Assembly: GCA_041649135.1 (NCBI GenBank)
Contig: JBAZNQ010000001.1
Location: 361,983-425,982 of the forward strand
Length of the DNA stretch: 64,000 nucleotides
Reading direction: 5' to 3'
Source of the DNA: Patescibacteria group bacterium
GTDB lineage: Bacteria > Patescibacteriota > Kazan-3B-28
Shown: one piece after another, positions 2,561-64,000 of the stretch
Layout: each line of letters opens with the position of its first letter
How positions within the stretch are numbered: the stretch's first letter is position 1
Position numbers and translations under genes: made by a program
The notes under the pieces: generated by a model
Database searches by the model: none
What the model saw: only the letters and a program-made list of their open reading frames with translations
Told to the model about the DNA's origin: nothing

Positions 2561-3451
2561 CTACTCTGCCGGATCATACTGCTCATGCCCCGAACCTTGC
2601 AGCGGATCGTGCGACAATAGCAGACTGTTCAGCCGCCCTAAGTCGAATATTTGCCCGGGCTGCACAAAGCCAGGGAACCCGTGCTGTTCCACCCTCCCAA
2701 CATACTGCCCGAAGTTGGAGTTGTAATGAACTAGCCACATCTTGGCTCGGATCGGATCAGGCAAGCCCTCAAGCTGATCAAGACGGGCATGCACTCCGCT
2801 CGCCTCTGTCTCGCCGTACGTCTCACAGTCATGAATAATGACGTCAGCCCACTCATATCTGGACATCATCAAGTCCGGAGTGAACCGAGTGTCGCCACTA
2901 TACATGAACCTGACATACCGTTCTCCATCGGGCACGCCCAGGGTTGCCACCAACTGCAAACCATACGACGGTTGCCAACTGGTGCCATTCATAAAGTGCC
3001 GAGTAGGAAACAGCATCATATCAAGATTTGGGCCCAACCGCACCCACTCCTCCAACCGAACCTCGATCGGTTCGAAGAAGGTTTCCAGACTAGCCTCCTG
3101 TCCTTCCAGTGTCTGCAGCCCAGGAGCTAGTGCCATCCACAGTAGCTCCCTGAAATTCCCCGCCGGCAGATACAATTTCAGCCGGGGTTTCAAGCTAAAG
3201 TAGTTCAACAACGCCAAGCCGGCCAAGCCGCCGACATGGTCTGGATGCAAGTGAGTGATCACTATCCAAGTGATCTCTCTCCGCCTACCTTTTAGCCGGT
3301 TGATGATGTCCATCCCGCCACCGCAGTCAACCAATAGACGACCAAGCGTGCCATCAAGCTCCGGCCAGCTGACCAGCAGACAGGTCTGCCCAAGTCCTGG
3401 AGGCGCCAGCATACTGCCGGTGCCAATAAACTCTACTCTCGGGGCGTCCAT
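2561..3451 (-). CDS. Metallo-beta-lactamase-fold hydrolase
   Basis: THLHPDHVGG (HxHxDH) motif. Confidence 0.7.
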   Translation of the reverse strand: MDAPRVEFIGTGSMLAPPGLGQTCLLVSWPELDGTLGRLLVDCGGGMDIINRLKGRRREITWIVITHLHPDHVGGLAGLALLNYFSLKPRLKLYLPAGNFRELLWMALAPGLQTLEGQEASLETFFEPIEVRLEEWVRLGPNLDMMLFPTRHFMNGTSWQPSYGLQLVATLGVPDGERYVRFMYSGDTRFTPDLMMSRYEWADVIIHDCETYGETEASGVHARLDQLEGLPDPIRAKMWLVHYNSNFGQYVGRVEQHGFPGFVQPGQIFDLGRLNSLLLSHDPLQGSGHEQYDPAE

Positions 3452-6412: not shown

Positions 6413-6546
6413 CGCACACCTCCATCAAGACTACAAGATGCCTCCACCTTATCAGAACTCTTCCATCAGTCAACCCCATCCTCATTCATGTCGTTGCGGA
6501 AGTTCCGAGACACCGAGGGACGACCAAACAGTTTCCTAAACCGTGA

Positions 6547-6645
6547 TTCACCATTCACCATTCACCATTCACTATTCACTATTCACTATTCACTATTCAC
6601 TATTCACTATTCACTATTCACTATTCACTATTCACTATTCACTAT
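6547..6645. repeat. Heptanucleotide tandem array (CACCATT)3(CACTATT)~11
   Basis: Read directly from the sequence. It abuts and overlaps the stop codon of minus-strand tgt. Confidence 0.95.
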
Positions 6646-7718
6646 CTCATGTACTCTCCAATGTATTCCCCCAGCCGCCCTTGGATGATCGCTTCACGCG
6701 CACCTCTGACTAATTCGTAATTATGATGCCAGTTGTGCACCATCAGCCCGCGAATCGCTTCGCGGTCTTTGGCTTTAAACTTTCGACGCAATTCCGCTCG
6801 GGAAATCCCTGACCGACAGGTCGGACACTGACAGCTCTCATCCAACACCCGCTCATCATTCTCAAATTGAGCGTTTTTGATGTCGTAATGTTTGCCGCCA
6901 CGCATCCACACCCGTCCGTGCCGACCTTCCCGCGTTGCCGCAATTCCATCAAAAGTATCCATGCCTTCACGAATTGTCATTAAGACATCAATCGGCTTAC
7001 AAATCCCCAACATATGTCTTGGTTTATTTTCCGGTAGTCGTCTGATGCAAAACTTCACCATCTTCACCATCGCCCTTCTTGGTTCATCCCATGCCAACCC
7101 GCCAATCGCTACTGCTGGAATTCCATTGCGCAATTGTCGAGTGGCGTCCCACAGACTAATCGTTCTTGCCAATTTATTTAATCCGCCCTGTACAATGTAA
7201 TACAATTTATCATCCACAATTCCGCGGGATTGTTTGTGCCAGACCATTGTCATAATCGCCGACCAAATAAATTGAAACGGATTTTTTGCCATCGTATAAA
7301 CTGTATTGTCAAGCGGCATTATCAAATCTACTCCCGCTTTATTTGCCCATTTCACCACTTCTCGAGGGGTAATGAAAGTTTTCTTACCGTTTAAATCAAA
7401 TCCAATCCCTGCAAAACTCTGCCGTAAATGTTTCCCTAGGCTTACCATCTGAAACCCACCCGAATCAGACATTACCGGACCTTGCCATTCAATTCCATCT
7501 CGCACATCACTTTTCCCTGCTTCTCGCATCCAAAATGTATTTCGAAGCAAAATCACATCTTTGGTCGAAGTGATCTCTTCGGGCTTAAATCCCCACTTCT
7601 CAAGAGCTGTTGTGAAATTCAAAGTCACACACGGTGTCTCAATCTCTCCATGCTCTGTCCGCAAAACCCCAGCCCTCGCCTGACCATCTTTGGCCGTTAT
7701 GTCAAATGACAATCCCAC
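6642..7718 (-). CDS. tgt: Queuine tRNA-ribosyltransferase
   Basis: DSGGFQ motif and C-terminal Zn site CQCPTC...H. Confidence 0.85.
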   Translation of the reverse strand: MGLSFDITAKDGQARAGVLRTEHGEIETPCVTLNFTTALEKWGFKPEEITSTKDVILLRNTFWMREAGKSDVRDGIEWQGPVMSDSGGFQMVSLGKHLRQSFAGIGFDLNGKKTFITPREVVKWANKAGVDLIMPLDNTVYTMAKNPFQFIWSAIMTMVWHKQSRGIVDDKLYYIVQGGLNKLARTISLWDATRQLRNGIPAVAIGGLAWDEPRRAMVKMVKFCIRRLPENKPRHMLGICKPIDVLMTIREGMDTFDGIAATREGRHGRVWMRGGKHYDIKNAQFENDERVLDESCQCPTCRSGISRAELRRKFKAKDREAIRGLMVHNWHHNYELVRGAREAIIQGRLGEYIGEYMR

Positions 7719-7792
7719 TTCGCTTCACCTCCTCTTAATCAAATTAGAACAAGGGCAGACTACCAAAAAATCCCCTCCCTGCCTACCCCCAA

Positions 7793-7832
7793 CTGTATTA
7801 CCTATTTGTACGATCGTACAAATAGGTAATAC
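7793..7832. promoter_or_regulatory. 38-bp perfect palindrome (gtattacctatttgtacgatcgtacaaataggtaatac), upstream of tgt
   Basis: Perfect dyad symmetry centred on CGATCG. A near-identical second copy lies at 50248-50288. Confidence 0.6.
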
Positions 7833-7844
7833 ACATCCCAAAAA

Positions 7845-7872
7845 GAAAACCGCCCTTTCAGGCGGCCTTCTT
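7845..7872 (-). terminator. Intrinsic terminator after rplL (ggccgcctgaaagggcggtttt + T-run on the minus strand)
   Basis: Hairpin followed by a T-rich tract on the minus strand. Confidence 0.6.
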
Positions 7873-7901: not shown

Positions 7902-8423
7902 CTATTGAAGTTCAACCTTTGCCCCGGCTTCTTCAAGTTTCTTCTTGATCTCTTCAGCATCAGCCTTCTTCACGTTTTCTTTCACCATCTTTGGAGCTGC
8001 TTCCACCAAATCTTTGGCTTCCTTCAATCCAAGTTCTGTGACTTCGCGAACAGCCTTAATCACGTTAATCTTGTTAGCACCGGCACTAACTAAGTTAACA
8101 TTATATTCCGTCTTTTCTTCAGCTGCAGGACCAGCGGCGGCACCACCAGCGGCGGCAACGGCAACTGGAGCAGCAGAAACACCAAACTTGTCTTCCAACA
8201 CTTTGACCAGTTCAGCCAATTCGAGCACGGTCATTTCGCTGACCATATCCAAAACTTTCTTGGCGTTACCGGACAACTTGCTCGCATCGACCTTCTTTTC
8301 CTCTTTGGCTGGTTCAGCCTTCACTTCTTCCACTTTTGGCTCCTCTACAGCAGCCGCCTCAACGGTCGCTTCCGCAACTTCTGGGGTCTGCTCTTCTGGA
8401 GTCGTATTTTGTTCGTCTGCCAT
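7902..8423 (-). CDS. rplL: Ribosomal protein L7/L12 with ~45-aa acidic N-terminal extension
   Basis: C-terminal domain ...[24 protein letters not shown]... matches L7/L12. Strong RBS (aaggag) before the ATG at 8423 supports the extended start. Confidence 0.85.
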
Positions 8424-17037: not shown

Positions 17038-17230
17038 ACCTGCCTCGCAATAACAAGGGACACATCCAACGCCCCCTGTGGATTTACCGCCCCCACCATA
17101 CCGACAACCCCTCTCCCAGTCAACTAAGACCCCGTTGGGGTAAATCTAGCCAATTTATCCAATTTATTCCAATCTAACCAAAAAGATATTGGCGAAGATT
17201 GTTTAGATTGTCGAGATTGGTGATATTTAT

Positions 17231-22794: not shown

Positions 22795-24126
22795 ATGGAA
22801 CCTAATAGCTTATTTAATCCAGCCACCACCATGCCTGCGCTAGCGGGGAGAGAGATTAACATTGCTCCATTGGGCGCCACCAACATGGCTCGAGAATTCG
22901 ATGGATCATGGGATTTTCGTGGCGCCAAGACCAAATCTTATACGCATGGGCTCCATAGTTACCCCGCTATGTTTATTCCGCAGGTAGCACGACGGCTGGT
23001 TCAATCATACAGTCGACCGGGTGACAAAATTTGCGACATTTTTTGCGGCTCAGGTACTACCCTCGTTGAAAGTATTGTTTTGGGACGCGATGCAATCGGA
23101 ATAGACCTAAACCCGCTCGCCGTTTTTTTAGCAAAAGTAAAAACCACTCCAATTAATCCCTCCCTTCTCACAAAAGCATACTTTCATATCGTCGAAAAGT
23201 ATCATCAGCCCGACATTGTAGGCATTACAATACCAGAATTTCCTAATCTAAATTTCTGGTTTAACGAAACTACCATCGCACAACTGGCCAAGCTCAAATA
23301 TGTCATTCGCAAAACCACATCTGGAGATACAAGAGATTTCTTCATGGCAACTTTCAGTGAGGTAGTTCGTTTAGTATCAAACACCAAGAATGGTGAATTT
23401 AAGCTAGTGCGAATGTCGAGTGAAAAACTACGAGACTGGAATCCAAATGTCCTAAATATGTTCCGCAAGAAAGCCGAGAACAATATTGCGGGTATGTCAG
23501 ATTTTTTTCACGAAGTACCCAGTGATCACCGTGCCACAATCATCATCGGAGACTCTTCTCAAGACAATAAAATACCAAAAAACTCCATAGACTTGATACT
23601 CACCTCTCCGCCATATGGTGATAGCCGGACAACAGTGGCATACGGACAATTCTCAAGATTATCGTCACAGTGGATAGATTTATTCGAAGACCCCTCCGAG
23701 GCATCAAAAGTAGACAATCAACTGCTCGGTGGCAACAAGATTGGTGATTTATCACACAATCTACAATCCGTACACTTAATAGCCGCTTTAGAGACTATCG
23801 CACAACAAGACATCTCTCGAGCCAAAGAAGTATTGAGCTTTTTTATTGGGTTAAACCGATGCGTTGAACAAGCGCACTCCATCTTAAAACCCAACCGCCA
23901 CATGTGTGTTGTAATCGGAAATCGTCTAGTAAAACAAGTCCGCATACCCACAGACATCATTATTGCTGAACTTGGAAACGAAATCGGTTTTACATGCGAG
24001 ACCATTATGGCTCGCAATATCCCCGGAAAAAAGATGCCAATACGGAACTCTCCAACCAATATAGCGGGACAACTGGCAGATACCATGAATCAAGAAAGTA
24101 TCGTCGTTCTTCGTAAACTCAAATAA
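22795..24126 (+). CDS. Type II DNA methyltransferase (N4-cytosine or N6-adenine, SPPY; alpha-like motif order I...IV)
   Basis: Motif I DIFCGSGTT at ~aa 80; motif IV TSPPYGD at ~aa 270. Confidence 0.75.
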   Translation: MEPNSLFNPATTMPALAGREINIAPLGATNMAREFDGSWDFRGAKTKSYTHGLHSYPAMFIPQVARRLVQSYSRPGDKICDIFCGSGTTLVESIVLGRDAIGIDLNPLAVFLAKVKTTPINPSLLTKAYFHIVEKYHQPDIVGITIPEFPNLNFWFNETTIAQLAKLKYVIRKTTSGDTRDFFMATFSEVVRLVSNTKNGEFKLVRMSSEKLRDWNPNVLNMFRKKAENNIAGMSDFFHEVPSDHRATIIIGDSSQDNKIPKNSIDLILTSPPYGDSRTTVAYGQFSRLSSQWIDLFEDPSEASKVDNQLLGGNKIGDLSHNLQSVHLIAALETIAQQDISRAKEVLSFFIGLNRCVEQAHSILKPNRHMCVVIGNRLVKQVRIPTDIIIAELGNEIGFTCETIMARNIPGKKMPIRNSPTNIAGQLADTMNQESIVVLRKLK

Positions 24127-24805
24127 GTTTACGAAATGTGCTAAAAACTTCTTTGAAGTCCTTTAAAGGCAATCTAAACGCTGAGCCATGGTCATGAGGC
24201 CTGCCGTCAGGATACCTCCCCATCCTAATGTCGTATTTCATCTTTGCAATAAATCGGTCAAAGTTACCACCCTTACACAGATATGCCTCTTTGTAGGCAA
24301 ACTGTTCTTTGCCGTTATTGTCTTTCTTGGCTTCTGCCAACACTAAAATAACACCTCGACCTACCTTTTTGATAAAGCTATCTTCCAGTTTTGTCCTATC
24401 ATAAGAAACCACCAGTGACTTATGTTTAAACACAATTAGTTCACTATCTTTCTTGTTATCGACCAACCGATATCCTTGCTTATTGGCAACCCGCGTCACT
24501 GTTTGATGCAACACCTTTTTCCCATCTGTAGGACGAGGATACCCAAACTTATCCAATAATTTAGAATTCAAACCAGTATCCGGCTTACGAGTAAACAAAG
24601 TCACCATCGAACCGGTCTCGCGCCTTTGAGCCTTGAGCTCCATCACGCCAAAATCTGGCAGAGCAATATTGTTTTCCGTTATTCCAAGATAATCCTCAAT
24701 AGTCTTGCCGATCCCCGTATTGTGCAATCGGTTTGACTTTATCCAACCCTTGTTGGAAAGATCTTTTAGTTTTTTCTTTATCTGAACAAAAGTAAACTTT
24801 TTCAT
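24119..24805 (-). CDS. Type II restriction endonuclease, MvaI/BcnI-like (PD-(D/E)XK)
   Basis: ITENNIALPDFGVMELK (D-x-E-x-K) and C-terminal GRPHDHG...RLP match my memory of the BcnI/MvaI family. Convergent with the methylase, overlapping by 8 nt. Confidence 0.6.
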   Translation of the reverse strand: MKKFTFVQIKKKLKDLSNKGWIKSNRLHNTGIGKTIEDYLGITENNIALPDFGVMELKAQRRETGSMVTLFTRKPDTGLNSKLLDKFGYPRPTDGKKVLHQTVTRVANKQGYRLVDNKKDSELIVFKHKSLVVSYDRTKLEDSFIKKVGRGVILVLAEAKKDNNGKEQFAYKEAYLCKGGNFDRFIAKMKYDIRMGRYPDGRPHDHGSAFRLPLKDFKEVFSTFRKLI

Positions 24806-25026
24806 AAATTCTCCATAAAAAAATTAATCGACTTTTTATACATACGCGAAAGTTTGTTGAGTTCGATAATATCCAGCCGTCTCTCTCCCGCCTCCACCTT
24901 CGACACAAACGACTGTGGCTTCCCTAATTTTTGAGCCACCTCTTTTTGCGTTAAACCGGCAGACAATCTTGCCTGCTTTAGTTTCTCCACTAACTTCTGA
25001 TATTCCCCCGAGTAAATTGATTTCAT
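24802..25026 (-). CDS. HTH XRE-family controller (C) protein of the R-M system
   Basis: LTQKEVAQKLGKPQSFVSKVE helix-turn-helix. Its 3' end overlaps the start of the endonuclease gene by 4 nt. Confidence 0.7.
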   Translation of the reverse strand: MKSIYSGEYQKLVEKLKQARLSAGLTQKEVAQKLGKPQSFVSKVEAGERRLDIIELNKLSRMYKKSINFFMENL

Positions 25027-35954: not shown

Positions 35955-36075
35955 AGAATCCCCGCCCTTATTTTCGTCATTCCCGCGCAGGCGGGAATCC
36001 AGAAAAGAACAAGAAAAAATATTTTTGTTTCTGTCTAGATTCCGGATCAAGTCCGGAATGACAGGAAAAAGAAGA
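35955..36075. repeat. MITE-like element (gtcattcccgcgcaggcgggaatcc ... attccggatcaagtccggaatgac)
   Basis: Two terminal hairpins flank an A/T-rich, roughly palindromic core. Same family as 40195-40288 and 62795-62925. Confidence 0.7.
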
Positions 36076-36551
36076 CCGCCCTTTCGGGCGACCTTCTCCA
36101 AAACCAAAACATCAAAATCTAATCCACTACCATCAAAATTTTCGCTAACCAAACCGATTCATCCTCTGTGTTATTACAAACAAACTTATATATCCCCAAG
36201 CGAGCCTTGCGAGATAAATTATTAAAAGCCAAGTAAGCTTTGGAAAATACTCCGTACATTTTGTGCTACGTTGTTAGTATTGCCAGTTTGTCTGGTCCGG
36301 TAAACGGCTGACCGCTTCCGAAGCCGACTGTTTGGATGAGTCTCCCTCCGAAACTCCATCCCAGTAAAGTCAATAACTTTTGTATTTTTCATTCTGGGTG
36401 CACATTTCTTAATATGACACCCCCCAATCCATTTGATTCTATTATACCGCAAAATCACCTCCCAGTCAAGATTTTTCCGCTCCCAGACCTGATAATTCCC
36501 ACTTTTCCTCCTATGGACACCCACAGAAACTAGATTCCCGCCTTCGCGGGA

Positions 36552-38801
36552 ATGACAGCTTGGGGTCTAGATGACAAAATAAAAGCGCTTACAAAGCGCC
36601 ACCGCAACTATTCACTTATCACTTTTAACTTTTCACTTCCCCTTATGCTCTCCCCTGCCAGCAAACTCGACTCCCTCCCCCACATCGGGCCCGCTCTCGC
36701 TTCCCAATTAGCTGTCTTGGGTATTTTGACTGTTGAGGACTTGATCTATTATTTCCCTCGGGCATGGGAAGATTTAAGCCAACTAGCTGAAGTCGCCCAT
36801 CTCATCCCAGACGGTCAGCGTCGGACTGTTAAAGCCACCCTAATTAATCTCAAAACTTTCCGCTCCCCCTACAAACGAATGACCCTCACCCAAGGAATCG
36901 CCCGTGATGCTAGCGGAGAACTGCCGGTAATTTGGTTCAACCAGCCATTTTTACGCAACACTCTCAAAACCGACACCGAATATTTTCTTACCGGCAAAGT
37001 TGAAAACCGTTCCGGCAAATTATCTTTGGTTGCTCCCGATTTTGAACGCGTCAGCGATGTCCCGATCCATAGTCTGCGAATTGTACCGGTCTACCCAGAA
37101 ACTGGTCGGCTAACCACTAAAGTCTTTCGCCGACTATGCGCCAATCTCGCTCCCATCATTCATCAAATCGAAGATTACTTACCAGATACTATTCTGGCGC
37201 AATATCATTTGTTACCACTTTCCGAAGCTCTGCTCCATCTTCATTTTCCCGCTTCATTAGAGTATCTTCAGCGGGCCAAAGACCGACTAGCTTTTGACGA
37301 GCTCCTGCTTACCCAACTCGCCGTCCAGGGCGTAAAACAATTTTTGAAATCATCTGACGCTCTGCCCATTCCCCAAGACATCGATTTCATCAAATCAATT
37401 TTAGCCAAACTCCCTTACCAATTAACCATTGGTCAGAAAAAAGCCCTCTGGGAAATTGTTCAGGATTTGAGCGACACCAAGCCGACCAATCGCCTACTCG
37501 AAGGCGATGTCGGTTCTGGCAAAACTATCGTGATCGCGATTGCGATGATGTTAGCCGCGAAATATCATTTCCAATCCGCTCTCATGGCTCCGACTGAAGT
37601 CTTGGCTTATCAACATTATCATTCCCTTGAACCACTACTGACCCAATTTGGGATTACCTGCCGTCTGTTCACCCAAAGCTTCAAACTAGGACCAGAATCA
37701 GCCGATGTTACCATCGGAACTCACACTTTAATTCAAGACGCAACCAAATTTGATAATCTCAATCTCGTCATCATTGATGAGCAACATCGCTTTGGCGTCA
37801 AACAACGAGAAAAACTAAAACACAAATCCGCCGACGATCAAGATAGTCAGGTGGGCAAGGGACCTGCCCGCCACACTGCGTCTAATGAAAATGCGGCTGG
37901 GCCTGCCCGCCCCACTGCGTCGTTAGGAAATGAGGCTGGGTCTACCCGCCACATTGCATCTAAAGACGCTGTGGGCTGGGTTCCGCATTTCCTCTCTCTG
38001 ACCGCCACTCCCATCCCCCGTTCTCTCGCCCTAACCTTGTTTGGTGATTTAGATTTATCAGTCATTACCATGCGTCCAGTTGGTCGCCTACCTATCAAAA
38101 CCTCCGTCATTACCAACCAGCAACGCGGACAGGTTTATAAATTGATTCAGCAGGAGATTGATGCCAATCGGCAAGCTTTTGTTATCACTCCTCTGATTGC
38201 TGATTCAGATCGACTGGCTGTGAAATCCGCCGAAAAAGAATTTAAGAATATTCAATCGCTCTTCCCGCACGCTCGCGTCGGGCTCTTACACGGTCGGCTA
38301 ACTACTGACAAGAAACAAGCTGTGATGGATGATTTTAAAAATCAACGTTTAGATATTTTAGTTGCGACTACCGTCATCGAGGTTGGTGTCGATATTCCCA
38401 ATGCCACCGTCATGTTAATTGAAGGAGCGGAAAGATTTGGTCTGGCCCAACTTCATCAGCTCCGTGGTCGAGTTGGTCGTGGACAAGCGCAATCATATTG
38501 TTTCGTTACCCCAACCGACACCAATGATGAAATTACAAAACGTCTCCAAATTTTCGCCAACAACGTCGATGGTTTTAAGTTAGCCGAGATGGATCTACAA
38601 ATGCGCGGTCCGGGGAGTCTTTTTGGCAAAGTTCAATCCGGCTTTGTTCGCTATCGTCTGGCCGACTGGACCGATGCCAAAGCGATCAAAATCGCCCAAG
38701 ATGCCGCCTTAGAAATTTTGAGCCAAAGTCCTGACCTCTCCAAATATCCAGAGCTAAAGAAAAAAGTTAATATTGAAAGTGTCATTGCTCATTCCGAGTA
38801 A
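36552..38801 (+). CDS. recG: ATP-dependent DNA helicase RecG
   Basis: GSGKT, DEQH, TATPIPR and the RecG wedge region. Contains an in-frame 3 x 33-nt tandem repeat at ~37855-37965. The start may be a downstream Met. Confidence 0.8.
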   Translation: MTAWGLDDKIKALTKRHRNYSLITFNFSLPLMLSPASKLDSLPHIGPALASQLAVLGILTVEDLIYYFPRAWEDLSQLAEVAHLIPDGQRRTVKATLINLKTFRSPYKRMTLTQGIARDASGELPVIWFNQPFLRNTLKTDTEYFLTGKVENRSGKLSLVAPDFERVSDVPIHSLRIVPVYPETGRLTTKVFRRLCANLAPIIHQIEDYLPDTILAQYHLLPLSEALLHLHFPASLEYLQRAKDRLAFDELLLTQLAVQGVKQFLKSSDALPIPQDIDFIKSILAKLPYQLTIGQKKALWEIVQDLSDTKPTNRLLEGDVGSGKTIVIAIAMMLAAKYHFQSALMAPTEVLAYQHYHSLEPLLTQFGITCRLFTQSFKLGPESADVTIGTHTLIQDATKFDNLNLVIIDEQHRFGVKQREKLKHKSADDQDSQVGKGPARHTASNENAAGPARPTASLGNEAGSTRHIASKDAVGWVPHFLSLTATPIPRSLALTLFGDLDLSVITMRPVGRLPIKTSVITNQQRGQVYKLIQQEIDANRQAFVITPLIADSDRLAVKSAEKEFKNIQSLFPHARVGLLHGRLTTDKKQAVMDDFKNQRLDILVATTVIEVGVDIPNATVMLIEGAERFGLAQLHQLRGRVGRGQAQSYCFVTPTDTNDEITKRLQIFANNVDGFKLAEMDLQMRGPGSLFGKVQSGFVRYRLADWTDAKAIKIAQDAALEILSQSPDLSKYPELKKKVNIESVIAHSE

Positions 38802-38945: not shown

Positions 38946-39001
38946 AATACTTTGGTTAGATTGGTCTAGATTGGTGAGATTGGTCAGATTAATATATAGC
39001 T

Positions 39002-40194: not shown

Positions 40195-40288
40195 CGTGTC
40201 ATTCCCGCGTAGGCGGGAATCCAGACAGAAAAAGAAAAATTGTTTTTTGTTTTTTCTAGATTCCCGCCTACGCGGGAATGACAACTTG
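40195..40288. repeat. MITE-like element (gtcattcccgcgtaggcgggaatcc ... attcccgcctacgcgggaatgac)
   Basis: Nested hairpins and an A/T-rich palindromic core. Confidence 0.7.
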
Positions 40289-49833: not shown

Positions 49834-50139
49834 CTAGCTGATCCGTTCTGTCCCGTCACCTGAAAAATCTTCGGAAACGTCCATCCCGTACAGTTCGCGC
49901 AGCTCACCATACACCCTATTCAGATCATTGCTATCACCCATCCTCCTAATCGCCGCCTTTCGGCCAATATGGTTTACAGAGATCGGTCTGTCAAATCCGC
50001 CAGAGCAATCTTGCATCCCGGGTTCCGCAAACTGAAAAGTACCCGACTCGAAACGTTCCCGATCAACCACCTCTTGCCGGTCTTCCTCGATGACTGCATC
50101 CTTAGGACGCTGCCTCTCGTAGTCCTCAAATAATCCCAT
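49834..50139 (-). CDS. Hypothetical protein
   Basis: ORF only; the 38-bp palindrome lies ~110 nt upstream. Confidence 0.35.
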   Translation of the reverse strand: MGLFEDYERQRPKDAVIEEDRQEVVDRERFESGTFQFAEPGMQDCSGGFDRPISVNHIGRKAAIRRMGDSNDLNRVYGELRELYGMDVSEDFSGDGTERIS

Positions 50140-50247
50140 TATGCCTAAGTTTAATACCTATAACATCGTTGCGAGCGTATCAAAAAATGCGCCCCCAGTC
50201 AAGCTTTTTGACGCCCCTAGATTATAGCCCGCCGCAAACAATAGCCT

Positions 50248-50288
50248 GTATTACGTATATGTACGATCGTACATATTCGTAATACAAA
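50248..50288. promoter_or_regulatory. Second copy of the long palindrome (ttacgtatatgtacgatcgtacatattcgtaa)
   Basis: Shares the TGTACGATCGTACA core and GTATTAC...GTAATAC arms with 7793-7832. Confidence 0.6.
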
Positions 50289-50349
50289 CATATTAAACAA
50301 AACAAATAAAAAAGGGCGTACGTTTTCACACACGCCCGAACCCCGATGT

Positions 50350-50880
50350 TCACGCACCCAGAGCAAGTTCCAACGAACTTGCCTCGGCATGCCCGCGCAA
50401 TTCCGTATCTTTTTGGGAGCATAACTCTCCCAACTTTCCGCAAAATTCGCACAGGCACTCCAGATTCCCAGACGCCCAATTGCCACCGATGACAGCCGCA
50501 AAAGTGGCAATCAGTTTCCCGTAGTGGGCATCACTCGGTATACGAGCTACCGCTTCCGCCACTTCTGCTGCCGTTGGATGTGAAGCAAGCAATCGTTTTC
50601 CTTCATCTTCCGTTAGTAGACCCATCGCTCGATTCACTACTGGGAATATGGCCAGCATCTCGCCCAGCTCACCAAGCGGGCCCGACCATTCGCCCCCCGA
50701 AAAAATTCGCATCGCCCCACGAGCCCGTCTCGCCTGCTTCTCCACCTCCCGCAAACGGGAGATGTCTGTCTGGCACAATATTCCTCCTTTTGCCAGATCC
50801 TCCAGCACAGGCACAAGCTGCTTACAGCATATGGCCAAACACAGCCAGTCACTAGCGATCATCTGCTTCTCCTTCGACAA
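50350..50880 (-). CDS. Hypothetical Cys-rich protein
   Basis: ORF only. Confidence 0.35.
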   Translation of the reverse strand: MSKEKQMIASDWLCLAICCKQLVPVLEDLAKGGILCQTDISRLREVEKQARRARGAMRIFSGGEWSGPLGELGEMLAIFPVVNRAMGLLTEDEGKRLLASHPTAAEVAEAVARIPSDAHYGKLIATFAAVIGGNWASGNLECLCEFCGKLGELCSQKDTELRGHAEASSLELALGA

Positions 50881-54414: not shown

Positions 54415-55199
54415 TTGCGATTAGGTAGTTTCTATCGCTCCCCACTGGACGTGCGTGTCTAGCGCATCCAGCGAGTCTCTATGTCGTATTAATCCGATTC
54501 TAGCTATCCCTGTAGCGGTTAGATGTTCTTTCCGCTCTATCATTTCTGCAACTTCACAAAACTTTTCGAATTGTAATTTTTTCTTGGCTTGAAGCGGGTA
54601 ACTTCGGAAGAAAGGAATAATCTTATTCCTGATATCCGAGAAGTTGCTCACTTTGTACTTCACGTGTGGTTGCCATTTATCGAACTTTTCGTATTCCAAG
54701 CGATAAATGTTGCCACAACCAAGTGTTGCTTTAATTTTCTCCAAGATAGCTTCATCATCTTCCCGAAGTTCAATCTCGAAAATCAATCGAACTTCCGGTA
54801 AACGACTGCCGTTTTTATTGACTGTGATGCAAAAACATCCTTCTCCGTCAACAAATCCGACAATATAGTTTGGATCTAACATAGAGTTCACCCCTTCATC
54901 TGCTCTTATTATAGAACAAACTACTACGGGCTCAGCTGACTTCCTTTTGACCATAACAACTACACTCGTCAAAAGGATCTCCCTGGGTCACACATTGGGC
55001 TATTTCTGACATTCCTACGCGAGCTCTTCTATGGTTTCTTCTCTTGCGTACACGGCAAGATCGAAACGCTCTTAAATGCGTAAGACTACCATTTGCATAT
55101 TGGCTCCTTCAGGCTTTTCCTTACGGAAGAAGCCCTAGCCTTAGCTATAAAGTCGGATTCTCACCGACTAGTCCAATGCGCTGCCAGGCGCATTTATTT
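54415..55199 (-). other. Intervening sequence (intron-like, probably group I) in 16S at ...CUUGUACA|CACCGCCCGUC
   Basis: The flanking exon sequence reconstitutes the universal CTTGTACACACCGCCCGTCACACC when 54415-55199 is removed. The insert carries a LAGLIDADG ORF. Confidence 0.75.
54421..54972 (-). CDS. LAGLIDADG homing endonuclease (single-motif)
   Basis: NYIVGFVDGEGCF motif. The real start is probably the Met at ~54882. Confidence 0.75.
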   Translation of the reverse strand: MTSVVVMVKRKSAEPVVVCSIIRADEGVNSMLDPNYIVGFVDGEGCFCITVNKNGSRLPEVRLIFEIELREDDEAILEKIKATLGCGNIYRLEYEKFDKWQPHVKYKVSNFSDIRNKIIPFFRSYPLQAKKKLQFEKFCEVAEMIERKEHLTATGIARIGLIRHRDSLDALDTHVQWGAIETT

Positions 55200-55624
55200 T
55201 GTACAAGACCCGAGAACGTATTCACCGCAACATGGCTGATTTGCGGTTACTAGCGATTCCGGCTTCATGGGGTCGAGTTGCAGACCCCAATCCGAACTGG
55301 GGGTAGTTTTGCTGGGTTTGGCTCCACCTTACGGCTTAGCGTCCCATTGTGACCTACCCATTGTAGCACGTGTGTCGCCCAAGATATAAAGGCCACGCTG
55401 ATTTGACGTCATCCCCACCTTCCTCCGTGTTAACCACGGCAGTCTCGCCAGACACTTGTAACTGGCAATAGGGGTTGCGCTCGTTATCCGACTTAACGGT
55501 ACATTTCACAACACGAGCTGACGACAACCGTGCAGCACCTGTCTCTGCTGTCTTGCGAGGGGCTCTATTTCTAGTGCCTTTCAGCAGGATGTCAAATCTT
55601 GGTGAGGTGCCCGGCTTACCATCC

Positions 55625-55679
<55 letters not shown>

Positions 55680-55780
55680 TAGTCTTGCGACCGTACTCCC
55701 CAGGCGGGATACTTAACGCGTTAGCTTCGTCACTGGGGGGGTCGAAGCCACCAATGACTAGTATCCATCGTTTAGGGCGT

Positions 55781-55814
<34 letters not shown>

Positions 55815-56202
55815 ACGCTTTCGTCCATGAGTGTCAGGGCCGGCCCAGTTGTCTGCCTTCGCCTTTGGTGTTCCTTATCGTATCAACGGATATTACCCCT
55901 ACTCGATAAGTTCCGACAACCTCTACCGGCCTCAAGACCAACAGTTTCCAACACCTTCCCTCGGTTGAGCCGAGATATTTAACGTTGGACTTGTTGATCC
56001 ACCTGCGGACCCTTTACGCCCAGTGAATCCGAATAACGCTTGGCGCCTACGTATTACCGCTGCTGCTGGCACGTAGTTAGCAGCGCCTTATTCGCTTAGT
56101 ACCGTCATAATCTTCCTAAGCAAAAGAAGTTTACAAACCGAAGTCCGTCTTCCTTCACGCGGCATTGCTCCATCAGGCTTTCGCCCATTGTGGAAAATCC
56201 CT

Positions 56203-56247
<45 letters not shown>

Positions 56248-56772
56248 CTGGGGGGTCACCCTCTCAAGCCCCCTACCGATCAGTGCCTTGGTAGGCCTTT
56301 ACCCCACCAACAAGCTAATCGGACGCAGGTCTCTCTTCGAGCGATAAATCTTTCCTCTTACGAGAATATCCAGAATTATCCTGCCTTTCGGCAGGTTATG
56401 CTGAACTCGAAGGTAAGTCCCCACGTGTTACTCAGCCGTTCGCCATGGTACCCTTGCGGGCCATTCAACTTGCATGTGTTAGGCATGCCGCCAGCGTTAA
56501 TCCTGAGCTAGGATCAAACTCTCAAAAAAGTATATTTTTATTCCACTTCTGGAATTTAAAGTTTTGAATTCACGAAGCTCTCTAAGTACTCTCTAGTTGG
56601 AAAAGTACGACTAGTTGAGAGTCGCGCTATCCACCAGAGGCCAAATAAAACCAAGATTCCGGTTACCGGAATCCGCAAGGTTTACAGTTCGACCTGACTG
56701 GAAAAGATTAATACAACTCTAGTGGGTATTTTAATCCCCACCACCACCCCTGTCAACACTCTAATTTCAAAG

Positions 56773-62925: not shown

Positions 62926-62994
62926 CCAGAGAAACACCACCAGCTACCCCAATTGGTGAGATTGGTGAGATTGTTCAGATTGGATAGATTATTT

Positions 62995-63720: not shown

Positions 63721-64000
63721 ACGATGCTACAACACTAGCATATTATTTCTTAAGCATTTAGACCAGCCCCACAAAATATCAACGTGCTTCCTCGATGCCT
63801 CGGAAAGACAAATTTTACTTTTGTGTCCCCGAGGAACCGAGGGGCTACCATAACTGTTCACTATTCACCATTCACTTTTAACTATTCTCTCCCTCGTCCT
63901 TCTTCTCATCCATCGGCTCTTGCGTAAAATCTGCTTCCTTCGCTCCGCCTTCTCCTGATTGGTTAGATTGGTCAGATTGTTGAGATTGGTTAGATTGCCC

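What the first reader, a model, noticed from the sequence alone, without database searches (positions are those of the whole stretch)
7793..7832. Two copies of a long perfect palindrome centred on GTACGATCGTAC, in promoter regions
The copy at 7793-7832 is a 38-bp perfect palindrome ~75 nt upstream of tgt. The copy at 50248-50288 has the same core and arms (one mismatch) ~110 nt upstream of a 101-aa unknown gene. Each half-site is ~18 bp, much longer than typical operators. This suggests a dimeric regulator with an extended footprint, a recombinase or homing-endonuclease target, or a cruciform-forming element. The xerC/D gene is 500 nt from the second copy, but dif sites are normally not perfect palindromes.
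Basis: seen in the sequence. Interest (0 to 1): 0.5.

Follow-up and report, generated by a model that had tools for sequence, protein, structure and literature searches.

The report
Dispersed 40-bp perfect palindrome repeat
The two sequences are real copies of a 40-bp perfect palindrome, but cross-genome evidence indicates a small hairpin-forming repeat that lands in the spacers behind genes in some uncultivated bacteria, not a switch controlling tgt.

Summary
Both palindromes exist, at 7794-7833 (perfect, 20+20 nt) and 50247-50286 (one mismatched pair), and are far beyond chance. On the minus strand each lies between the intrinsic terminator of the upstream gene (rplL; a 176-aa ORF) and the putative promoter of the next gene (tgt; a 101-aa ORF). 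The window is from a Patescibacteria/Saccharibacteria-like genome. Five syntenic relatives lack any palindrome between rplL and tgt. A relative at about 75% nucleotide identity carries the same repeat (inner 34 bp identical) at other loci. Of 17 classifiable copies in several lineages, none lies between divergent genes and 6 lie between convergent genes. The outer arm halves differ between lineages but stay complementary, using Watson-Crick pairs only. There are no target duplications and no solo half-sites. Genomes carrying the element also hold other long perfect palindromes with unrelated arms and the same CGATCG centre. I conclude it is a low-copy, DNA-level fold-back repeat related in kind to REP-like elements, not a conserved operator. 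The partner protein and function are unknown. The "conserved 20-bp core" is partly an artefact of how I searched.

The parts
7794..7833 (.). Copy 1: perfect 40-bp palindrome (two 20-nt arms meeting at CGA|TCG)
   Evidence: As RNA or DNA it folds into an 18-bp stem with a GAUC loop, -24.7 kcal/mol, z = -6.2.
50247..50286 (.). Copy 2: same palindrome with one T-T mismatch; differs from copy 1 at 5 positions, including two compensated pairs
7837..7862 (-). Neighbour, not part of the repeat: intrinsic terminator of rplL, whose T-run ends about 6 nt before copy 1
   Evidence: An orthologous terminator is kept in L036.
7757..7785 (-). Neighbour: putative tgt promoter TAGGCA-N17-TAGTCT with a TGn extension, starting 8 nt after copy 1
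   Evidence: Read. TGGTAGTCT is conserved in L036. It falls below the threshold of the consensus scan, so it is inferred.
50314..50337 (-). Neighbour: intrinsic terminator of the 176-aa ORF (50350-50880)
50174..50202 (-). Neighbour: putative promoter TTGACT-N17-TACGCT (TGn) of the 101-aa ORF, 44 nt after copy 2
   Evidence: Read. Below the scan threshold, so it is inferred.

Best explanation
The two sequences are copies of a short dispersed fold-back repeat. It is a 40-bp DNA palindrome (two ~20-nt arms abutting at CGATCG) that is copied as a block into spacers behind gene 3' ends. It is not a gene-specific operator.

Shown:
- It is a repeat that occupies non-orthologous sites.
- It avoids 5'/5' spacers.
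- It keeps strict Watson-Crick symmetry while its outer arms diverge between lineages.
- It has neither target-site duplications nor solo arms.
- It co-occurs with other CGATCG-centred perfect palindromes in the same genomes.

Inferred:
- What matters is the intrastrand hairpin or cruciform form of the DNA.
- The invariant apex (…ACGATCGT…) is the part seen by a trans-acting protein, either a hairpin-recognising nuclease/transposase of the kind that moves REP/REPIN or IS200/IS605 elements, or a CGATCG-specific enzyme.
- In the window, the copies sit in the untranscribed gap between a terminator and the next promoter. There they are tolerated and at most act as an insulator or back-up stop.
For: 1. 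Non-orthologous, block-wise copying.
- L036 is syntenic with the window at about 75% nucleotide identity. It lacks the palindrome between rplL and tgt but has it after dut, where the window has none.
- The inner 34 bp are identical between these genomes.
- The L036 and L051 copies are the same asymmetric 40-mer in opposite orientations.
- Four more syntenic relatives (L108-L115, about 21 kb each) have no copy.

2. Position. Of 17 classifiable copies, 11 are between tandem genes, 6 between convergent genes and 0 between divergent genes. The background for spacers of 45 nt or more is 71/22/21. Copies usually lie nearer the 3' end.

3. Symmetry. On 19 copies from about 10 arm families, 88.5% of cells are paired. 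There are 108 double-sided changes against 40.6 in shuffles (0 of 500 reach the observed value). Slid controls give 25-45% pairing. Pairing is solid to about arm position 17, weakens to position 20 and is lost beyond. Variable columns 8-17 hold only A-T and G-C pairs, with no G-U.

4. No solo half-sites at up to 4 mismatches, and no flanking direct repeats.

5. A wider class. In the MAGs that carry the element, other long perfect palindromes with unrelated arms share the CGATCG centre: L036 720 and 5653, L051 1135, L056 1 and 4370 (60 bp), L049 2867, L117, and L118 (with one mismatch). Seven of the 21 palindromes I did not search for (perfect, arms of 9 nt or more) are GATC-centred, against 0 of 51 in about 600 kb of control loci.

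6. The window also holds another hairpin repeat family, ATTCCCGC-N4-GCGGGAAT, in 4 copies. Dispersed hairpin repeats are therefore normal for this genome.
Against: - Copy number is low: 2 in about 71 kb here, and 1-3 exact-core copies per representative genome, including one complete 1.23-Mb genome. This is unlike REP families.
- No transposase, HUH or RAYT gene was seen in the window, and whole genomes could not be searched.
- No filled-versus-empty site pair between close strains was found, so insertion was never caught in the act. All close strains carry both copies.
- The perfect stem has no bulges and no flanking conserved tetranucleotide, which is unlike known HUH substrates.
- Identity of the inner 34 bp of the 40-mer across genomes that are about 75% identical could equally mean strong selection for a sequence-specific binding protein.
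- The cross-lineage "conserved 20-bp core" is partly ascertainment, because I searched with it. The one unbiased comparison (L008 against L117) shows 8 of 10 inner and 2 of 10 outer positions kept.
Confidence: 0.5

Rival explanations
1. A DNA-binding site (operator, roadblock or nucleoid-protein site) for a symmetric dimer or tetramer. The protein would read the 20-22-bp core and cover about 40 bp, regulating or insulating tgt and the 101-aa gene.
For: - The core ATnTGTACGATCGTACAnAT is a genuine operator-type sequence elsewhere. In Actinobacteria and Proteobacteria it overlaps starts or promoters of TetR-family, MFS and acetyltransferase genes.
- In the window both copies lie upstream of promoters.
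- Copy number is low.
- The inner 34 bp are identical across divergent genomes.
- Inner positions are more conserved than outer ones in L008 against L117.
Against: - Not conserved at the orthologous spacer in 5 relatives.
- 6 of 17 copies lie between convergent genes and 0 of 17 between divergent genes.
- No TetR homologue in the window or in the sampled Patescibacteria loci.
- Compensated arm changes between copies within one genome are not expected for independent half-site reading.
- The outer arms differ completely between lineages yet stay palindromic.
Confidence: 0.17
2. An RNA-level element: an orientation-independent hairpin. It would act as a bidirectional terminator, a 3'-end stabiliser or an RNase III site, with a CGAUCG apex recognised by an RNA-binding factor.
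For: - Location at gene 3' ends and between convergent genes.
- A very stable 18-20-bp stem.
- Some family members have A-tract/T-tract flanks and score as bidirectional terminators (L056 2202-2245 and 4378-4421; L036 720 and L051 1135).
- A perfect palindrome gives the same RNA from either strand, which would also explain Watson-Crick-only pairing.
Against: - In the window both copies lie after a canonical terminator and before the next promoter, so they are probably little transcribed. They have no U-tract, and only the neighbouring hairpins are called as terminators.
- No Rfam family matches.
- No G-U pairs at all in the variable columns.
- A 60-bp perfect palindrome (L056) is far beyond what termination needs.
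Confidence: 0.15
3. A passive by-product. Template-switch (quasi-palindrome) mutations grow and perfect palindromes around a short CGATCG seed. The copies have no function and no dedicated enzyme.
For: - Sporadic extension of the same core to about 40-bp palindromes at single loci in Actinoplanes (L045, L022), Brevibacterium (L044) and Bradyrhizobium (L072, L076, L090). Their orthologous neighbours have only the short core.
- Unique long CGATCG-centred palindromes with local-looking arms.
Against: - It does not explain identical arms at different loci of one genome (window x2, L027/L036/L051, L001/L056, L016/L048, L039/L049). It also does not explain the same 40-mer in two genomes that are about 75% identical.
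- It does not explain why CGATCG is the favoured centre only in some genomes.
Confidence: 0.1
4. A site-specific recombination or segregation site: a dif or Xer site, an invertase site, or a diverged parS.
For: - A Xer-type tyrosine recombinase gene lies 482 nt from copy 2.
- In L008 and L117 a palindrome of this type lies directly after parB, and no canonical parS is found there.
- A single exact copy exists in one complete genome.
Against: - Two copies 42 kb apart inside a region of constant GC skew, with housekeeping genes between them.
- No similarity to the dif consensus.
- 3 of 5 parB loci of L008 relatives lack it.
- A perfectly symmetric centre gives no polarity for recombination.
Confidence: 0.05

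Closest known systems
REP / REPIN elements mobilised by RAYT (HUH Y1) transposases
   Same: Short extragenic palindromes that form hairpins. They are dispersed at non-orthologous sites behind genes, leave no target-site duplication, have lineage-specific sequences, and are symmetric doublets (REPINs).
   Different: Only a few copies instead of hundreds. The palindrome is perfect with no spacer or bulges. There is no 5' GT[AG]G tetranucleotide and no RAYT gene in the sequence available. The centre rather than the flank is the constant part.
Foldback MITEs (two terminal inverted repeats with little or no interior)
   Same: Two about 20-nt inverted arms, moved as a block, in intergenic DNA.
   Different: No target-site duplication, no sharply defined ends (pairing fades between arm positions 17 and 26), and no parent IS with matching ends. 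A genuine MITE next to the L073/L099 copy shows what one looks like in these data: TIR plus a 5-bp duplication.
HIP1 (GCGATCGC) and other highly iterated palindromes of cyanobacteria
   Same: A palindrome centred on CGATCG that is enriched only in certain genomes, possibly linked to GATC/CGATCG methyltransferases (PMC4390886, PMC5861425).
   Different: HIP1 is an 8-12-mer, hyper-abundant and common inside genes. Here CGATCG itself is at the expected frequency (33 against 29.5). What is special is the 24-60-bp perfect extension in spacers.
Bidirectional intrinsic terminators
   Same: Hairpins between convergent genes or behind genes. Some relatives of the element have A/T-tract flanks and pass a terminator scan.
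   Different: The window copies are AT-rich 18-20-bp stems without a U-tract, and they sit next to a separate canonical terminator.
TetR-type operator CATGTGTACGATCGTACACATG of Actinobacteria (and the Bradyrhizobium TTGACA-linked site)
   Same: An identical 14-20-bp core sequence.
   Different: Those sites overlap gene starts or promoters next to TetR, MFS or acetyltransferase genes and are conserved at orthologous loci. The window element has no such neighbours, no TetR homologue, and extra lineage-specific arms.

Membership tests
Transcription-factor operator | Site conserved upstream of orthologous target genes | tested here: not met
   The rplL-tgt spacer of L036, L108, L110, L112 and L114 has no palindrome.
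Transcription-factor operator | Sites lie in 5' regulatory regions | tested here: not met
   0 of 17 copies in divergent spacers and 6 of 17 in convergent spacers.
TetR-type operator with the same core | Adjacent or genomic TetR-family regulator | tested here: not met
   tblastn with five TetR proteins from the core-only loci found nothing in the window or in the sampled loci of element-carrying lineages (Patescibacteria and Auribacterota-like). Whole genomes were not searchable.
REP/REPIN-RAYT | Many dispersed extragenic copies per genome | tested here: inconclusive
   Dispersed and extragenic, yes. But there are only 2 copies in about 71 kb and 1-3 exact-core copies per representative genome.
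REP/REPIN-RAYT | Conserved GT[AG]G tetranucleotide at the 5' end of an imperfect hairpin | tested here: not met
   Flanks share no motif, and the stems are perfect.
REP/REPIN-RAYT | Cognate RAYT (Y1 HUH) gene in the genome | not testable with these tools
   None among the window ORFs scanned. The rest of the genome is not available.
MITE | Target-site duplication and defined termini | tested here: not met
   No direct repeats flank any of the 19 copies, and arm length varies from 17 to 26.
Intrinsic terminator | GC-rich stem followed by a U-tract | tested here: not met
   Not called at either window copy; only the adjacent hairpins are. Met for the F2 copy in L056.
dif / Xer site | Single site at the terminus (GC-skew switch), 11-6-11 layout resembling the dif consensus | tested here: not met
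   Two copies 42 kb apart with GC skew uniformly about -0.25. No dif-like match.
parS | Recurs near parAB and resembles TGTTNCACGTGNAACA | tested here: not met
   Present after parB in L008 and L117, absent in L116, L118 and L119. No sequence resemblance.
HIP1-type iterated palindrome | Short palindrome strongly over-represented genome-wide, including in genes | tested here: not met
   CGATCG occurs 33 times against 29.5 expected, and ACGATCGT 3 times against 3.5.
Known RNA family | Match to an Rfam covariance model | tested here: not met
   A gathering-threshold scan of the window found only rRNA, tRNAs and a group II intron domain.

The most novel reading that the evidence does not exclude
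Some uncultivated bacteria of at least three lineages carry a so-far undescribed class of long perfect palindromes (24-60 bp) built around CGATCG. The lineages are Saccharibacteria-like, Sungbacteria-like and Auribacterota/PVC-like. The palindromes would be made or spread by a CGATCG- or hairpin-apex-recognising enzyme, for example a selfish restriction-modification or HUH-type activity. The window's 40-mer would be one mobile member. This would be a new way of generating and moving palindromic DNA.
Probability: 0.2. Interest if true: 0.7.

Novelty: new variant of a known kind. Interest (0 to 1): 0.42.

Why it matters
If correct, the palindrome should not be annotated as a tgt operator. It would add a low-copy, perfectly symmetric fold-back repeat to the very sparse catalogue of repeats in Patescibacteria. 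It also points to a genome-specific process that favours CGATCG-centred palindromes in unrelated candidate phyla. That process could be tested with methylome data and whole-genome censuses. It may bear on how reduced genomes tolerate long palindromes and how terminator-proximal spacers evolve.

Tried and rejected
- LexA box. The core resembles GTAC-N4-GTAC boxes from memory. Per PMC7739468, LexA recognises a direct-repeat motif in several lineages, citing the Patescibacteria study among others. The positions also do not fit.
- TetR operator. The same core in Actinobacteria and Bradyrhizobium is a real operator, but no TetR homologue is present here.
- parS. Tested by fetching parB loci of L008 relatives; present in 2 of 5.
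- dif. Skew and consensus searches were negative. The L042 locus near a possible skew change was inconclusive.
- Restriction-site avoidance or enrichment. None found.
- Phage or plasmid origin. No long-palindrome hits in IMG/VR, PLSDB or INPHARED.
- Literature. No paper holds the sequence in a relevant context or describes such repeats in Saccharibacteria.
- Family-specific metagenome scan. It returned 0 hits, although a JGI contig with the element exists (L104), so that collection is incomplete for this lineage.
- Empty-versus-filled site comparison. Close strains are all filled, and relatives are too diverged to align spacers.
- Extending the source contig by 7.4 kb gave no new copy.

Full report
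**Observation**

The sequence at 7794-7833 is TGTATTACCTATTTGTACGA|TCGTACAAATAGGTAATACA, a perfect 40-bp palindrome. The sequence at 50247-50286 is TGTATTACGTATATGTACGA|TCGTACATATTCGTAATACA, with one T-T mismatch.

- The 14-mer core occurs exactly twice in the window, against 0.13 expected.
- The 19-nt half-site gives four hits against 0.10 expected.
- The two copies differ at five positions. Four of these form two compensated pairs.
- Either strand folds into an 18-bp stem with a GAUC loop (about -25 kcal/mol, z = -6 to -10).
- Identical copies occur in independent assemblies from ENA, JGI and two Logan runs, so the feature is real.

**Setting in the window**

The window is from a Patescibacteria (Saccharibacteria-like) genome. 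Its GC skew is about -0.25 throughout, and most genes are on the minus strand.

Read on the minus strand, both copies have the same layout:
- An upstream gene: rplL at 7902-8423, or a 176-aa ORF at 50350-50880.
- A canonical intrinsic terminator at 7862-7837 or 50337-50314.
- The palindrome, 6-27 nt further on.
- A weak extended -10 promoter candidate. For copy 1 it is TAGGCA-N17-TAGTCT at 7785-7757. For copy 2 it is TTGACT-N17-TACGCT at 50202-50174. Both were read and fall below the scan threshold.
- The next gene: tgt at 6642-7718, or a 101-aa ORF at 49834-50139.

The copies therefore sit in the gap between two transcription units.

**Comparison with relatives**

The closest Tgt homologues of other lineages are at most 79% identical.
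- L036 comes from a GTDB Saccharibacteria MAG and is syntenic at about 75% nucleotide identity. It keeps the rplL terminator and the TGGTAGTCT promoter element but has no palindrome there.
- Four further syntenic relatives (L108-L115, about 21 kb each) have none either.
- The same MAG does carry the palindrome at three other loci: after dut (L036), after miaA (L051) and after an 805-aa gene (L027). The inner 34 bp are identical in the L036 and L051 copies; L027 differs at one position. The window has nothing after dut.
- The L036 and L051 copies are the same slightly asymmetric 40-mer in opposite orientations.

So the 40-mer is copied as a block to non-orthologous places. It is far better conserved than the ribosomal protein genes around it.

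**Wider search**

I scanned 185,579 representative genomes with ATNTGTACGATCGTACANAT and obtained 59 loci. A metagenome scan gave 39 more.

*Core-only sites.* In Actinobacteria and Proteobacteria the 20-24-bp core overlaps starts or promoters of TetR-family, MFS and acetyltransferase genes. In Bradyrhizobium it lies next to a TTGACA box. This is an ordinary operator and probably unrelated, because a 20-bp palindrome has only about 4^9 possible forms.

*Long palindromes.* These have arms of 17-26 nt whose outer roughly 10 nt are lineage-specific but complementary. About ten arm families were found.
- They occur in several Saccharibacteria MAGs.
- L008 is Sungbacteria-like, judged from ParB homologues.
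- The F5 family is Auribacterota/PVC-like, judged from a neighbouring peptidase.
- Several arm families occur at more than one locus of one genome.

*Pairing statistics* (19 copies):
- 88.5% of cells are paired.
- There are 108 double-sided changes against 40.6 in shuffles (0 of 500 reach the observed value).
- Slid controls reach only 25-45% pairing.
- Pairing is solid to about arm position 17, weakens to position 20 and is lost beyond.
- The variable columns hold only Watson-Crick pairs, with no G-U.

**Position statistics**

Of 17 classifiable copies, 11 lie between tandem genes, 6 between convergent genes and none between divergent genes. The background for spacers of 45 nt or more in the same sequences is 71/22/21. 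Copies usually lie nearer the upstream gene's 3' end. This is the opposite of what an operator would show.

No copy has flanking direct repeats. No solo arm exists in the sampled DNA.

**A wider class**

The genomes that carry the element also hold other long perfect palindromes. Their arms are unrelated but the centre is the same, (A/T)CGATCG(T/A):
- L036 720 and 5653.
- L051 1135.
- L056 1 and 4370 (60 bp).
- L049 2867.
- L117.
- L118 5035 (arms of 15 nt with one mismatch; listed only).

Supporting counts:
- In MAG co2_194, 6 of 10 CGATCG occurrences are palindrome centres. In MAG co1_204 all 4 are. In the window only 2 of 33 are long-armed, and in the relatives 1 of 34.
- About 600 kb of control loci hold no GATC-centred palindrome other than the sites I searched for.
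- Two of these extra palindromes form a second family with a compensated change (AAAAC[G/T]CACGATCGTG[C/A]GTTTT).
- Some have A/T-tract flanks and score as bidirectional terminators. The window copies do not.
- At the parB locus of an L008 relative (L117), the palindrome has a variant core, TGTGTTCGATCGAACACA. The inner ten positions are 8 of 10 conserved and the outer ten are 2 of 10 conserved. This is the only unbiased evidence that the inner part is more constrained.

The apparent universal 20-bp core is otherwise partly a product of my search pattern.

**Interpretation**

The best reading is a low-copy, DNA-level fold-back repeat. It belongs to a genome-specific class of CGATCG-centred palindromes that settle behind genes.
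- Strict Watson-Crick symmetry and compensated changes within a genome point to the hairpin or cruciform form, or to a symmetrising copy mechanism. They do not point to two independently read half-sites.
- Block copying without duplication resembles REP/REPIN or IS200/IS605-type behaviour. The defining REP features are not met: no GTAG tetranucleotide, no high copy number, and no RAYT gene seen.
- I could not identify the partner protein. The window has no transposase-like gene. It holds a Xer-type recombinase, an MvaI/BcnI-type R-M system, ComEA, RecG and a small GIY-YIG protein.
- An RNA-level role (orientation-independent hairpin), a roadblock- or operator-type protein site, and passive palindrome growth remain as rivals.
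- dif and parS are effectively excluded.

**Limits**

- Whole genomes of the carriers could not be read.
- The collection scans were capped and are incomplete. One search missed a known JGI copy.
- No filled-versus-empty pair between close strains was found.
- Gene maps of the fetched loci are ORF-based.

Noticed in passing
window 6546-6645: A 7-nt tandem repeat (ATTCACT x14.3, 98% matches) directly after the tgt stop codon. L036 has different heptamer repeats (ACTAGAT-like) in its spacers.
   Followed up: partly
window 63959-63998, 38950-38990, 17143-17190, 62962-62990; L051 1199-1238: Short tandem arrays of a roughly 9-nt unit (GATTGGTNA) recur in several spacers of the window and in the related MAG.
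   Followed up: no
window 35979-35998, 36534-36553, 40201-40220, 40260-40279: A second dispersed hairpin repeat, ATTCCCGC-N4-GCGGGAAT (4 copies against 0.06 expected). Two copies form an 87-bp inverted pair just upstream of tRNA-Leu.
   Followed up: partly
window 22795-25026: A restriction-modification cassette in a low-GC patch: an N4/N6 DNA methylase (22795-24126 +), an MvaI/BcnI-family endonuclease (24119-24805 -) and a 74-aa HTH controller-like protein (24802-25026 -).
   Followed up: partly
window 54421-54974, next to 16S rRNA 55148-56529: A LAGLIDADG endonuclease ORF and a group II intron D1-D4 Rfam hit lie beside the rRNA gene.
   Followed up: no
window 1-64000: GC skew is extreme and uniform, between about -0.04 and -0.30 and mostly -0.2 to -0.3.
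   Followed up: no
L073 5724-5909 and L099, compared with L074: A 181-bp MITE (TIR CCTAARTTGAGCGATT, 5-bp duplication TAAAA) is inserted exactly at the edge of the F5 palindrome in two metagenome contigs. It is absent in a 99%-identical third contig.
   Followed up: partly
L045, L022, L044, L072, L076, L090: At single loci in Actinoplanes, Brevibacterium and Bradyrhizobium, the short TetR-type operator with the same core has been extended to a roughly 40-bp palindrome. Compensated differences occur between Actinoplanes species.
   Followed up: no
L008 (CAYIEG010000058.1): The record is titled Saccharibacteria, but its ParB is closest (up to 80% identity) to proteins named Candidatus Sungbacteria / Parcubacteria, and its GC content is 0.59.
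   Followed up: partly
window 2561-3451: A metallo-beta-lactamase-fold protein matches the anti-Pycsar Apyc1 family above the Pfam cut-off (56.7 against 50 bits).
   Followed up: no
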